NCBI GenBank assembly: GCA_017408325.1
Contig: JAFQUW010000075.1
Location: 1 to 29,085, forward strand
Reading direction: 5' to 3'
Source: Clostridia bacterium
Lineage (GTDB): Bacteria; Bacillota; Clostridia; Oscillospirales; SIG627
Length of the DNA: 29,085 nt
The notes below the pieces were generated by a model. The model made no database searches. It was given only the letters and a program-made list of their open reading frames with translations, and was not told the origin of the DNA. Below are positions 9,075 through 11,238 of the stretch, one piece after another. How positions within the stretch are numbered: the stretch's first letter is position 1; each line of letters opens with the position of its first letter. The translations under genes were made by a program, and so were the position numbers.

Positions 9075-9101
9075 CGTTCCCCAGCTTCCCTTACCGATCA
9101 C

Positions 9102-9129
9102 AAAAAGCACCGCAGTTGCGGTTCTTTTT
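9102..9129 (+). terminator. Intrinsic terminator after the lipoprotein genes
   Basis: AAAAAGCACCGC-AGTT-GCGGTTCTTTTT hairpin with a T tract. Confidence 0.6.
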
Positions 9130-9188
9130 GGCTTTATCCGCGGTCTTTTTCAAGAGAAAAAAGCCCGGCAGAAGCATCACTCCGTATC

Positions 9189-9307
9189 CCGCAAAACGCC
9201 CCCACGGTATACGGGCGCGTTTTGTGCCGAAGGCTTCCCCTTTGCCCGTCTCGCCTCGGCTTTCTTCTTTGTTTCTTTCTTCTTTCTCCCGAAAGAAGAA
9301 AGAAAAG
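9189..9307. repeat. Left copy of a composite palindromic (REP/BIME-like) repeat
   Basis: 9189-9230 matches 10869-10910 at 41/42 nt, followed by CTCGGCTTT and the hairpin TTTCTTTCTTCTTTC-TCCC-GAAAGAAGAAAGAAA. Confidence 0.8.
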
Positions 9308-9334
9308 CCCCCCGTCGCTCAAGGCAACGAGGGG
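9300..9334 (-). terminator. Intrinsic terminator of the XRE gene
   Basis: Minus strand CCCCTCGTTGC-CTTGA-GCGACGGGGGG (with G-U pairs) followed by CTTTTCTT. Confidence 0.55.
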
Positions 9335-9351
9335 TCGTGAATGCAAATGCT

Positions 9352-9558
9352 TTAGTTTTTCTTGTCGGTCCTGCCAAGGATATAGTCCGTAGTTACTTTA
9401 TGAAAATCGGCAAGCTTCAAGAGAATTTCCGTTGGGATATCCAACACGCCGCGCTCATAATCGGAATAAACGCGCTGACTGCAGGAAAGTGCGTGTCCCA
9501 TCTGTGCCTGTGTCAAATCTCGATCTTCGCGCAGATCACGAATTCGTTTGTAAACCAT
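9352..9558 (-). CDS. Small XRE-family helix-turn-helix transcriptional regulator (68 aa)
   Basis: RIRDLREDRDLTQAQMG...SQRVYSDYERG...LLKLADFHKVTTDYILG, a canonical HTH_3 pattern. AGGTGG RBS. Confidence 0.92.
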   Translation of the reverse strand: MVYKRIRDLREDRDLTQAQMGHALSCSQRVYSDYERGVLDIPTEILLKLADFHKVTTDYILGRTDKKN

Positions 9559-9613
9559 GAAACCACCTATACCATATCATCTGCCAAAAACAACTGTGGT
9601 ATACAGTATAGCG

Positions 9614-9659
9614 TAGCGGAAAATCCGCTATTGACTTTTAGTGTAAAATCCGCTAAAGT
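9614..9659 (+). promoter_or_regulatory. sigma70-type promoter overlapped by two 17-bp palindromic operators
   Basis: O1 TAGCGGA-AAA-TCCGCTA (9614-9630, perfect 7-bp arms); -35 TTGACT (9631-9636); O2 TAGTGTA-AAA-TCCGCTA (9639-9655); -10 TAAAGT (9654-9659); 17-bp spacer. Confidence 0.75.
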
Positions 9660-9684
9660 ATAAATGCTCCCCTGTTTCAGGGTC

Positions 9685-9924
9685 GGCGAACGCCTGACGC
9701 GACAAAAGCGTGAAACGGCAAACGCCCGGTGCGGCGAACGCTTAACTCGGCGAACGCGTGAAACGGCAAACGCCCGATGCGGCGAACGCTTAACTCGGCG
9801 AACGCGTGAAACGGCAAACGCCCGATGTGGCGAACGCTTAACTCGGCGAACGCGTGAAACGGCAAACGCCCGGTGCGGCGAACGTTTGACTCGACGAAAG
9901 CCTAACTTGACGAACCCGCGACAA
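9685..9924. repeat. Tandem array of 15 x 16-bp units in a 48-bp (A-B-C) higher-order repeat
   Basis: A GGCGAACGCTTAACTC, B GGCGAACGCGTGAAAC, C GGCAAACGCCCG(A/G)TGC. Four full triplets start at 9685, 9733, 9781 and 9829; three degenerate units follow from 9877. Confidence 0.95.
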
Positions 9925-9945
9925 GAGGGGCAAATTTTTGAGCGT

Positions 9946-9968
9946 GTTTAGCGGATTTTCCGCTAAAC
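9946..9968. promoter_or_regulatory. Distal operator O3 / 23-bp palindrome
   Basis: GTTTAGCGGA-TTT-TCCGCTAAAC; its core 9949-9965 is the exact reverse complement of O1. Confidence 0.75.
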
Positions 9969-9995
9969 GCAACAACCGATGATACAGAGAAAGGC

Positions 9996-10082
9996 ATGGC
10001 TGTTATGAGCACTTTGATTAAAACGATCGAGGCTCTCGCAAACGTTCGAAAAGCACCTGCCGGTATCTGTGATGAGGAGTAA
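9996..10082 (+). CDS. Possible 28-aa small ORF (MAVMSTLIKTIEALANVRKAPAGICDEE)
   Basis: Open frame after AGAAAGG (better spaced for the second ATG at 10005); ends 6 nt before the next gene. No homology evidence. Confidence 0.2.
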   Translation: MAVMSTLIKTIEALANVRKAPAGICDEE

Positions 10083-10088
10083 ATCATT

Positions 10089-10817
10089 ATGAAAAAGCCC
10101 CTTTCTTTTGTTCTTGCTGTCTGTGTTTTTGTCGCGTTTTTTGCCTCAGTCTTTTGTCTGTCGGCTCACGAAGCCGTAAAAAACAACGGGATCTATTATT
10201 ACATCGTTTCATACGGCAAAGCAACCATTACCGATACAGTGAACGAAGCTCTCGGCGATTATGTTGTTCCGTCTACCATCGGGGGATATCCGGTAATCGC
10301 CATAAAGGATAACGTTTTCTACAACGATCTACGACTAACGGCAATTGTCATTTCAAATAATGTAACCACCATCGGAAAGAACGCTTTTTCCGGCTGTGTT
10401 CAACTGTCTTCAGCTACAATAGGAGAAGACGTCACGACCATTGGGGAAGGCGCTTTTTACGGTTGTTGCAACTTAACATCGATTGTTCTCCCCGCAAGCG
10501 TATCAGACATTGGCAAAAAGGCGTTTAGCAAGTGTGCCGAAAATTTTATCATTTATGGGTATTACAACAGCTTTGCCAGAACCTATGCAGAAGCCAACGG
10601 CTATCAATTTGAGGCACTCGACAAACTGATCGGAGACCTTGACCAGAGTGGAGACGTCTCTATCAACGACATAACGCTTTTAGCTAAATATATTTCCGGT
10701 TGGGACACGGAAATTGATGCCGCCTGGGCTGACTGCGATGGAGACACAAAAATCTCGCTCAACGATTTAACCTTTTTGACTCGATCTGTCGCCGGCTGGG
10801 CTGTCTCTTCCGAATAA
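10089..10817 (+). CDS. Secreted BspA-type leucine-rich repeat protein with a C-terminal type I dockerin
   Basis: Signal peptide; VTTIGKNAFSGC, VTTIGEGAFYGC, VSDIGKKAFSKC repeats; duplicated Ca-loop GDLDQSGDVSINDITLLAKYI...ADCDGDTKISLNDLTFLTRSV. Confidence 0.88.
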   Translation: MKKPLSFVLAVCVFVAFFASVFCLSAHEAVKNNGIYYYIVSYGKATITDTVNEALGDYVVPSTIGGYPVIAIKDNVFYNDLRLTAIVISNNVTTIGKNAFSGCVQLSSATIGEDVTTIGEGAFYGCCNLTSIVLPASVSDIGKKAFSKCAENFIIYGYYNSFARTYAEANGYQFEALDKLIGDLDQSGDVSINDITLLAKYISGWDTEIDAAWADCDGDTKISLNDLTFLTRSVAGWAVSSE

Positions 10818-10868
10818 TCAAATTTCACAAGCTGTCATACAAGCGTATAAACATCGAACAAACATAAG

Positions 10869-11202
10869 CCGCAAAACGCGCCCACGGTATACGGGCGCGT
10901 TTTGTGCCGATGGCCCGCTCTTCCTGTTCCCCGCTCGGCTTTTCTTTTGCTCCTTTCTTTTCTCGAAAAGAAGGGGAAAACCAAAACCGAGCCCGCGGTT
11001 TGGGCTCGGTTTTCTGCTGACGTAGTCTATTTCTTTTTCTCGCCTCGGCTTTTCTTTTGCTCCTTTTCTTTTCTCGAAAAGAAAAGGAGAGAAAAACCGC
11101 AAACGGAGCCCGTCGTTTGGGCTCCGGTTGTGTGTGACGTTGCCGTTTGCTTTTTTTAGTATAGCTTTTCTTTGCTTCTTTCTTTTCGCGAAAAGAAAGA
11201 AG
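10869..11202. repeat. Right cluster of composite palindromic (REP/BIME-like) repeats
   Basis: 42-bp hairpin copy (10869-10910), two ~110-bp units (CTCGGCTTTT at 10934 and 11044) each with a TTCTTTTC-nn-GAAAAGAA hairpin and a GAGCCC/GGGCTC hairpin, then a third TTCTTTTC hairpin (11175-11202). Confidence 0.85.
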
Positions 11203-11209
11203 GAAAAAA

Positions 11210-11238
11210 TTGACTCTTACTTTTGTGTGTGTTATAAT
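11210..11238 (+). promoter_or_regulatory. Strong sigma70/sigmaA promoter for the dnaD-dnaC-metG-tatD run
   Basis: TTGACT-17bp-TATAAT with an extended TG. Confidence 0.85.

What the first reader, a model, noticed from the sequence alone, without database searches (positions are those of the whole stretch)
9685..9924. Nested repeat array: 15 x 16 bp arranged as 48-bp triplets between the operators
Seen: units share a GGC(G/A)AACGC head and cycle through three tails (TTAACTC, GTGAAAC, CCG(A/G)TGC), with the most degenerate units at both ends. Many heads can fold as mini-hairpins (GC-GAAC-GC, GGC-AAAC-GCC). The array starts about 20 nt after the predicted TSS and ends 21 nt before the O3 palindrome. 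A 16-bp period is about 1.5 helical turns, so successive units alternate faces. Inference, three options: a repetitive leader or ncRNA acting as a protein sponge or processed repeats (layout recalls type III antitoxin arrays, but no toxin follows); an iteron/centromere-like protein-binding array; or a length-variable spacer tuning O2-O3 looping.
Basis: partly seen in the sequence, partly recalled or inferred. Interest (0 to 1): 0.7.

Follow-up and report, generated by a model that had tools for sequence, protein, structure and literature searches.

The report
Copy-number-variable 48-bp repeat in gene leader
This is a real tandem repeat (48-bp units, each made of three 16-bp sub-units) whose copy number differs between strains of a rumen bacterium. 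It sits in the leader between a repressor-controlled promoter and a secreted-protein gene, and it most likely acts as a variable-length spacer rather than making a product.

Summary
Positions 9684-9923 hold 15 sub-units of 16 bp, arranged as rows of 48 bp (92% matches). The 9-nt head occurs 11 times exactly, and only here in the window.

The array lies just after the only plausible promoter for a secreted LRR/dockerin gene. It sits between operators O1/O2 and O3 of a divergent 68-aa XRE repressor. O1 and O3 are the only perfect copies of that palindrome in the genome.

Independent assemblies carry 2, 2 (different rows), 4, 5 and at least 7 rows, so it is a genuine variable-number repeat and not an artefact.

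- It is absent from 50 genomes of the same family.
- It is absent from all other XRE modules examined.
- The array-bearing cassette (XRE gene, array, LRR gene) sits elsewhere in the genome in a related lineage.

There is no RNA structure, no Rfam match, no toxin gene and no partner binding-protein gene. The head motif is not enriched elsewhere. Look-alike arrays in other phyla are unrelated uniform 16-bp minisatellites.

One oddity remains: differences among rows are mostly synonymous in the one open frame. That ORF, however, lacks a ribosome-binding site, a usable start, normal codon usage and homologues.

Best reading: a non-coding, hypermutable spacer, possibly tuning expression. Interest is moderate to low.

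The parts
9352..9558 (-). 68-aa XRE-family HTH repressor gene, divergent from the array-bearing transcript
   Evidence: Pfam HTH_3, E 8e-11, residues 6-60. More than 3,700 cluster representatives at about 80-85% identity in Clostridia.
9614..9630 (.). Operator O1, a perfect 17-bp palindrome
   Evidence: Together with O3 it is the only perfect copy in the 1.05-Mb genome.
9631..9659 (+). Promoter-like site (TTGACT, 17-nt spacer, TAAAGT) with O2 (9639-9655) in its spacer. It is the only + strand promoter candidate upstream of the LRR gene.
   Evidence: The same O1 / -35 / O2 / -10 layout is conserved in loci L026-L031, L084 and L085.
9684..9923 (+). The array: 15 sub-units of 16 bp in five rows of 48 bp. 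R1 is 9685-9732, three near-identical internal rows are 9733-9876, and the degenerate R5 is 9877-9924.
   Evidence: Allele comparison.
9664..9951 (+). Doubtful 95-codon ORF across the array (16-aa repeat, Arg-rich). It is the only open forward frame.
   Evidence: Synonymous bias. Against it.
9949..9965 (.). Distal operator O3, a perfect palindrome about 285 nt downstream of the predicted transcript start
9996..10082 (+). 28-codon small ORF preceded by a purine-rich ribosome-binding-like site; status unknown
   Evidence: Read. Codon score +0.25 bits per codon. No Pfam or PADLOC match.
10089..10817 (+). 242-aa secreted LRR_5 + dockerin protein, the gene served by the array-bearing leader
   Evidence: Pfam LRR_5 6e-23 and Dockerin_1 6e-7. 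The N-terminus reads as a Sec signal peptide.
9189..9315 (.). Left copy of a dispersed repeat of about 110-125 bp that brackets the cassette
   Evidence: Related copies lie on contigs C32, C35, C65, C66, C85, C91 and C98.
10865..10973 (.). Right copy of the bracketing repeat, running into a 117-bp tandem repeat (10934-11208)

Best explanation
The array is a non-coding, hypermutable minisatellite. Its units are 48 bp, each built from three 16-bp sub-units, and it lies in the transcribed leader of an XRE-controlled cassette, between the promoter-proximal operators O1/O2 and the distal operator O3. Shown: rows are gained and lost in 48-bp steps, as expected from replication slippage or unequal recombination between near-identical rows. 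This gives alleles of 2 to at least 7 rows. Inferred: what matters is its length, not a product. Each step changes the leader by 48 nt and the O1/O2-to-O3 distance by about 4.6 helical turns. This would shift, in a heritable and reversible way, how strongly the XRE repressor and the long leader hold down the downstream secreted LRR/dockerin gene. That would make it a contingency-locus-like tuner of a surface-associated protein.
For: The repeat is real and specific to this locus. Independent assemblies differ only in the number of rows. The window has 5 rows and L052 has 4. L080, L081 and L082 (three samples) have 2 rows, R1+R5. L053 has a different 2 rows. L056 has at least 7 rows with a scaffold gap. 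A contig of another study (X6) skips exactly 144 bp. In run X1 the internal-row contig has depth 19.3 against 5.7-5.9 in the flanks, which fits about three internal rows. Words from the array occur in at least 13 studies of ruminant or animal gut samples. The only + strand promoter candidate ahead of the LRR gene is 9631-9659, and no terminator lies between it and 10089, so the array should be in that gene's 5' leader. A metatranscriptome contig (X19) lies inside the array (weak, because DNA carry-over is not excluded). O1 and O3 are the only perfect palindromes in the genome. Relatives of the XRE module have O1/O2 but neither an array nor O3, so the array is a lineage-specific addition to an existing switch. 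The downstream product is secreted, the usual kind of cargo for contingency loci. A documented precedent exists: a variable repeat tract flanked by operators of one repressor at nadA/NadR (PMC2791445).
Against: No expression data link copy number to output. The repressor is 68 aa with no room for a tetramerisation domain, so looping between O1/O2 and O3 is doubtful; a roadblock at O3 would not depend on distance. The observed alleles show no common helical phase: O1-O3 is 18.2, 27.3 and 31.9 turns. The 4-versus-5-row difference could be an assembly collapse, because two rows are identical over 95 bp. Two signals hint at sequence-level constraint that a pure spacer does not need. First, the 10-nt core varies in 1 of 10 columns while the tail varies in 5 of 6 (Fisher p 0.008). 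Second, 11 of 15 differences are synonymous in the open frame (p 0.0003-0.003, recount).
Confidence: 0.38

Rival explanations
1. It is a selectively neutral minisatellite. The array is a slippage-prone by-product in a repeat-rich intergenic region. It is tolerated in the leader and has no meaningful effect on expression.
For: Uniform 16-bp minisatellites are common. All 40 pattern hits in two large collections were such arrays in unrelated high-GC taxa, and two more lay under spurious protein predictions. The array is absent from 3 genomes of the same genus and 47 others of the family, and from all related XRE modules examined. The surrounding cassette is full of other repeats. There is no structure, no family match and no partner gene.
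Against: It sits exactly between the genome's only two perfect operators, in front of a secreted-protein gene. The head/tail asymmetry and the codon-phase bias of differences are not expected under pure neutrality, although each is only p of about 0.003-0.01.
Confidence: 0.3
2. The array encodes a protein. ORF 9664-9951 would give a small Arg-rich protein with a variable number of 16-aa repeats, translated from a leaderless mRNA that starts at its ATG.
For: It is the only open forward frame, and it stays open in every allele. Of 15 distinct differences among rows and alleles, 10 fall on codon position 3 and 11 are synonymous (p 0.0003-0.003). This count includes my correction of one position to 9939, read.
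Against: There is no ribosome-binding site. The ATG lies only 5 nt after the -10 hexamer, outside the usual start window, so it is probably not in the transcript (the start-window rule is established knowledge). The codon score is -0.23 bits per codon, below the 5th percentile (0.07) of the genome's genes, whereas the XRE, small ORF and LRR genes score +0.25 to +0.34. No gene caller called it on any contig. ESM Atlas recognition is low. Its only HMMER hits are translations of unrelated DNA tandem repeats. The Pfam Fibrinogen_BP hit is below the cut-off (31 against 50 bits). The three heads are read in three different frames.
Confidence: 0.12
3. It is a multi-site binding platform. The 15 conserved heads at 16-nt spacing would bind a protein on DNA (iteron- or centromere-like) or on the leader RNA (a sponge or TRAP-like wrap).
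For: The 10-nt core is conserved while the tails differ (Fisher p 0.008). Spacing is regular. The + strand is T-poor (11% T) and unstructured, which would leave an RNA accessible. The array is present in an RNA library.
Against: There is no candidate binding-protein gene in the cassette. The XRE operators are unrelated in sequence to the heads. The head motif is not enriched or clustered anywhere else in the genome. There is no plasmid or phage context. Two-row alleles keep only degenerate heads.
Confidence: 0.1
4. It is a type III toxin-antitoxin-like array of processed antitoxin RNA repeats.
For: Tandem repeats lie directly downstream of a promoter.
Against: There is no fold beyond shuffles and no Rfam match at E<=1. 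No terminator follows the repeats. The next gene is a secreted LRR/dockerin protein. There is no PADLOC hit, and no ToxN-family match in the 69%-complete genome, though the control genomes were silent too.
Confidence: 0.02

Closest known systems
Variable-number tandem repeats (minisatellites, such as MLVA or MIRU-type loci) in bacterial intergenic regions
   Same: Units of tens of bp with high identity between units, degenerate edge units, copy number differing between strains in whole-unit steps, and an intergenic or leader position.
   Different: This one is nested (three 16-bp sub-units with a shared 10-nt core per 48-bp unit). It is placed precisely between operators of one repressor. No family relationship to any described VNTR was found.
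nadA / NadR phase variation in Neisseria meningitidis (PMC2791445)
   Same: A variable repeat tract flanked by operators of one repressor, upstream of a surface-protein gene. The tract length alters the spacing of regulatory elements.
   Different: There the unit is a 4-bp repeat upstream of the promoter, in a Gram-negative pathogen, and the repressor is of the MarR family. Here the unit is 48 bp, lies downstream of the promoter in the leader, the repressor is a 68-aa XRE protein, and no effect on expression has been shown.
Type III toxin-antitoxin loci (ToxIN, CptIN, TenpIN)
   Same: Promoter followed by a tandem repeat array.
   Different: There is no terminator, no nuclease toxin gene, no structured repeat RNA and no Rfam match.
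Iteron or centromere arrays (for example sopC of F, parC of R1)
   Same: Regularly spaced direct repeats with a conserved core.
   Different: There is no adjacent Rep or Par gene. The context is a chromosomal cassette, with no plasmid or phage similarity. The two-row alleles keep only degenerate cores.

Membership tests
Bacterial VNTR / contingency-type repeat locus | Head-to-tail repeats with high identity between units | tested here: met
   Period 48, 4.5 copies, 92% matches. The internal rows are 98-100% alike.
Bacterial VNTR / contingency-type repeat locus | Copy number differs among strains in whole-unit steps | tested here: met
   2, 2', 4, 5 and at least 7 rows in independent assemblies. 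A 144-bp skip in run X6.
Bacterial VNTR / contingency-type repeat locus | Located in the promoter or 5' region of a surface or secreted protein gene | tested here: met
   Only one promoter candidate (9631-9659) and no terminator before 10089. LRR_5 + dockerin with a signal peptide.
Bacterial VNTR / contingency-type repeat locus | Expression changes with repeat number | not testable with these tools
   Needs reporters or strain-resolved RNA data.
Operator-spacing phase variation (nadA/NadR type) | Repeat tract flanked by operators of the same repressor | tested here: met
   O1/O2 and O3 flank the array, and O1 and O3 are the only perfect copies in the genome. Binding itself is inferred from the conserved layout next to the XRE gene.
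Operator-spacing phase variation (nadA/NadR type) | Repressor bridges or cooperates across the tract | not testable with these tools
   The 68-aa protein is a single HTH domain, which argues against tetramer-mediated looping.
Type III toxin-antitoxin | Downstream ToxN/CptN/TenpN-type endoribonuclease gene | tested here: not met
   The next genes are a 28-codon ORF and an LRR/dockerin protein. No PADLOC hit. No PF13958 match in the genome; this is weak, because the genome is 69% complete and the controls were silent.
Type III toxin-antitoxin | Intrinsic terminator between repeats and toxin | tested here: not met
   No + strand terminator-like site between 9664 and 10089.
Type III toxin-antitoxin | Repeat RNA with defined fold or known family | tested here: not met
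   z +0.25 against shuffles. No Rfam match at gathering score or at E<=1.
Iteron / centromere array | Adjacent gene for the cognate Rep or Par DNA-binding protein, on a plasmid or phage replicon | tested here: not met
   The cassette holds only the XRE gene, a small ORF and the LRR gene. No plasmid or phage similarity. A DnaB_2-domain gene lies 1.3 kb away, but in L080/L081 the cassette's XRE-side neighbour is different.
Iteron / centromere array | Conserved core at regular spacing | tested here: met
   Eleven exact heads at 16-bp spacing.
Protein-coding repeat gene | Usable start (ribosome-binding site, or a transcript start at the ATG), host-like codon usage, homologues | tested here: not met
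   No ribosome-binding site, and the ATG is 5 nt after the -10. Codon score below the 5th percentile. No true homologues.
Protein-coding repeat gene | Excess of synonymous over non-synonymous differences | tested here: met
   11 of 15 synonymous, 10 of 15 on codon position 3. The sample is small.

The most novel reading that the evidence does not exclude
A 48-bp minisatellite acts as a heritable, reversible expression switch. Each gained or lost row (about 4.6 helical turns, 48 nt of leader) re-phases the proximal and distal operators of a small XRE repressor, and so toggles a cellulosome-associated LRR protein in a rumen Clostridia lineage. This would be contingency-locus logic with a long nested unit, in a commensal Firmicute.
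Probability: 0.2. Interest if true: 0.55.

Novelty: new member of a known kind. Interest (0 to 1): 0.33.

Why it matters
If copy number really sets expression, this would extend repeat-mediated phase variation in three directions. It has been studied mostly with 1-8-bp tracts in pathogens; this case has a long nested unit, sits inside an XRE switch, and occurs in an uncultured rumen commensal. It would also give a handle on strain-level variation of cellulosome-associated surface proteins. If the array is neutral, it is still a useful strain marker. It is also a warning: 16-bp minisatellites are being annotated as '16-aa repeat proteins' in public catalogues.

Tried and rejected
1. Shared family with look-alike arrays: rejected. 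Scans of genome contigs, metagenome contigs and viral contigs for three heads at 16-bp spacing gave 41 loci. All are uniform 16-bp repeats with arbitrary tails in unrelated, mostly high-GC taxa.

2. Orthologous arrays in relatives: none found in 3 genomes of the same genus or 47 other genomes of the family. Only the operator palindrome matched.

3. Known RNA family or structure: none.

4. Protein homologues of the ORF:
- The word-index search found none.
- Atlas recognition was low.
- Exhaustive HMMER gave 39 hits, which proved to be heterogeneous 8- or 16-aa repeat translations. Two were traced to 16-bp DNA repeats.

5. Defence or toxin reading: no PADLOC or ToxN support.

6. Plasmid or phage origin of the cassette: no match.

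7. Head motif as a genome-wide site: not enriched, and no other cluster.

8. Literature search for the operator sequence: nothing.

9. Conservation of R1+R5 between cassette lineages: 0 differences in 96 bp at about 1% divergence, which is uninformative.

10. RNA run X19 covers only part of the array and no flanks, so it shows presence in an RNA library, not a transcript map.

11. Complex prediction and structure prediction were not used, because no binding claim rests on them.

Full report
**What is there**

Positions 9684-9923 hold 15 sub-units of 16 bp. Tandem Repeats Finder reports 9684-9898 as period 48, 4.5 copies, 92% matches, with weaker 16- and 32-bp periods. The repeat finder shows the 16-bp register.

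In register the sub-units share the core CGGCRAACGC and cycle through three tails. One sub-unit near the left end (9700) and the last three (9876-9923) are degenerate. The head GGCRAACGC occurs 11 times exactly, all in the array; 1.9 were expected and none of 100 shuffles reached 11.

The + strand of the array is 31% C, 31% G, 28% A and 11% T.

**Setting**

The window is the whole contig C22 of a 1.05-Mb, 69%-complete metagenome-assembled genome. DNA runs holding the stretch are ruminant and other animal gut metagenomes.

- 9352-9558 (-) encodes a 68-aa XRE HTH protein.
- The divergent intergenic region has operator O1 (9614-9630, a perfect palindrome), a TTGACT-17-TAAAGT promoter (9631-9659) with O2 (9639-9655) in its spacer, then the array, then O3 (9949-9965, perfect).
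- O1 and O3 are the only perfect copies of the palindrome in the genome.
- Downstream lie a 28-codon ORF (9996-10082) and a 242-aa LRR_5 + dockerin protein with a signal peptide (10089-10817).
- No other + strand promoter candidate and no terminator lie between 9660 and 10089. The array should therefore be in that gene's 5' leader, starting about 19 nt after a start near 9666. This is an inference from promoter geometry.

**Relatives**

The XRE protein has more than 3,700 cluster representatives at about 80-85% identity. Loci L026-L031, L084 and L085 keep the same O1 / -35 / O2 / -10 layout. They have short leaders, different divergent cargo genes (several read as membrane or lipoproteins), no array and no O3.

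The array is absent from 3 genomes of the same genus and 47 further genomes of the family. It is a lineage-specific addition to a widespread switch.

**It is a true variable-number repeat**

Independent assemblies that carry the same XRE or LRR protein give these alleles:

| Source | Rows |
|---|---|
| Window | 5 (R1, three internal rows, R5) |
| L052 | 4 |
| L080, L081, L082 (three samples) | 2 (R1+R5) |
| L053 | 2 (one internal row plus a variant R5) |
| L056 | at least 7, with a scaffold gap |

- A contig of another study (X6) skips exactly 144 bp and carries the same flank variants as L080-82.
- In run X1 the internal-row contig has depth 19.3 against 5.7-5.9 in the flanks, which fits about three internal rows.
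- Array words occur in at least 13 studies.
- The 4-versus-5 difference could be an assembly collapse, because two rows are identical over 95 bp. The 2-row, 5-row and at-least-7-row forms are structurally distinct.
- All changes are multiples of 48 bp.

**Cassette**

The region 9101-10973 is 96.5-98.5% identical in L080 and L081. There, its XRE side joins a nadE region that is 90% identical to contig C35 of this genome, not the WG-repeat gene of C22. The cassette is bracketed by copies of a repeat of about 110-125 bp that also occurs on at least seven other contigs. This agrees with earlier notes e1-5303080 and e1-5303081. The cassette matches no plasmid or phage.

**What it is not**

- The leader RNA folds no better than shuffles on either strand, so the 'mini-hairpins' carry no weight.
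- There is no Rfam match at gathering score or at E<=1.
- Type III toxin-antitoxin is not supported. There is no terminator after the repeats, the next gene is a secreted LRR/dockerin protein, there is no PADLOC hit, and there is no ToxN-family match in the incomplete genome.
- Iteron or centromere is not supported. The cassette has no Rep or Par gene, and the head is neither enriched nor clustered elsewhere in the genome.
- The 41 arrays with the same head found in three public collections are uniform 16-bp minisatellites of unrelated taxa. They are a common repeat class, not a family.

**The ORF question**

ORF 9664-9951 is the only open forward frame. It would give a 16-aa Arg-rich repeat.

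For coding:
- Of 15 distinct differences among rows and alleles, 10 fall on codon position 3 and 11 are synonymous (with one position corrected to 9939; statistics: p 0.0003-0.003 for the synonymous count, 0.0085 for codon position).

Against coding:
- There is no ribosome-binding site.
- The ATG is the fifth base after the -10 hexamer, upstream of the usual start window.
- The codon score is -0.23 bits per codon. Real genes average 0.58 with a 5th percentile of 0.07, and the cassette's own genes score +0.25 to +0.34.
- No gene caller predicted it on any contig.
- Atlas recognition is low.
- Exhaustive HMMER hits are a mixed set of repeat translations, two of which I traced to unrelated 16-bp DNA repeats.
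- The Pfam Fibrinogen_BP hit is sub-threshold.
- The three heads are read in three different frames.

I rate coding at about 0.12 and record the bias as unexplained.

A second weak signal is that the 10-nt core varies in 1 of 10 columns while the 6-nt tail varies in 5 of 6 (Fisher p 0.008). This points to nucleotide-level constraint or homogenisation of the heads. The two signals cannot reflect the same selection.

**Mechanism**

Shown:
- A repeat between the genome's only two perfect operators, ahead of a secreted-protein gene.
- Whole-row copy-number variation among strains.
- Presence in one RNA library.

Inferred:
- Rows change by slippage or unequal recombination.
- The consequence is a change of leader length and of O1/O2-O3 spacing by 48 bp (4.57 turns) per step.

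Centre-to-centre O1-O3 distance is 191, 287 and 335 bp for 2, 4 and 5 rows, that is 18.2, 27.3 and 31.9 turns. There is no common phase, which fits either a toggling switch or irrelevance of phase.

Looping by a 68-aa single-domain HTH protein is doubtful. O3 may instead act as a roadblock, or control a weak antisense promoter candidate at 10006-9979.

The closest documented logic is nadA/NadR, where a variable tract lies between operators (PMC2791445).

My weights are: length-variable tuner 0.38, neutral minisatellite 0.30, ORF 0.12, binding platform 0.10, type III-like 0.02.

**Verdict**

This is a new member of a known kind (a promoter-proximal VNTR) with an unusual nested unit and placement. 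Its function is untested.

Noticed in passing
window 9101-10973; L080, L081: The XRE-array-LRR cassette is 96.5-98.5% identical in a related lineage. There its XRE side abuts a nadE region (90% identical to contig C35) instead of the WG-repeat gene. It is bracketed by a dispersed repeat of about 110-125 bp that also occurs on at least 7 other contigs, which suggests movement by recombination between dispersed repeats.
   Followed up: partly
L026-L031, L084, L085 (XRE at about 3001 or 1501): A 68-71-aa XRE protein, about 80-85% identical across thousands of Clostridia records, always carries the same O1 / -35 / O2 / -10 divergent promoter. The divergent cargo gene differs each time, and several read as membrane or lipoproteins.
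   Followed up: partly
L061-L079 (genomes G025, G031, another genus of the family): The same perfect palindrome occurs 16-22 times per genome away from any XRE gene. It often lies between convergent genes, in mosaics with 7-bp x4 tandem repeats and a second hairpin. This could be either a large regulon or a REP/BIME-like element that carries the operator.
   Followed up: partly
window 9664-9951: Differences among repeat rows and alleles are 11 of 15 synonymous in the single open frame, although every other test speaks against a gene.
   Followed up: yes
L092 2603-2736; L093 2471-2737: Public protein catalogues contain '16-aa repeat proteins' (P0143, P0139) that are translations of uniform 16-bp DNA minisatellites. 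They are probably spurious gene calls.
   Followed up: partly
window 10934-11238: A 117-bp tandem repeat (2.4 copies) rich in hairpins ends at a near-consensus promoter (TTGACT-17-TATAAT with TG, 11210-11238). This lies just upstream of, or inside, the annotated start of a DnaB_2-domain gene, so the true start of that gene is probably further downstream.
   Followed up: no
L053 (allele of 9639-9655): In one allele O2 is the perfect palindrome (T9642C, T9644G), so operator strength also varies among strains.
   Followed up: no
window 9996-10082: A 28-codon ORF with a purine-rich ribosome-binding-like site and gene-like codon usage sits between O3 and the LRR gene. It has no family match.
   Followed up: no
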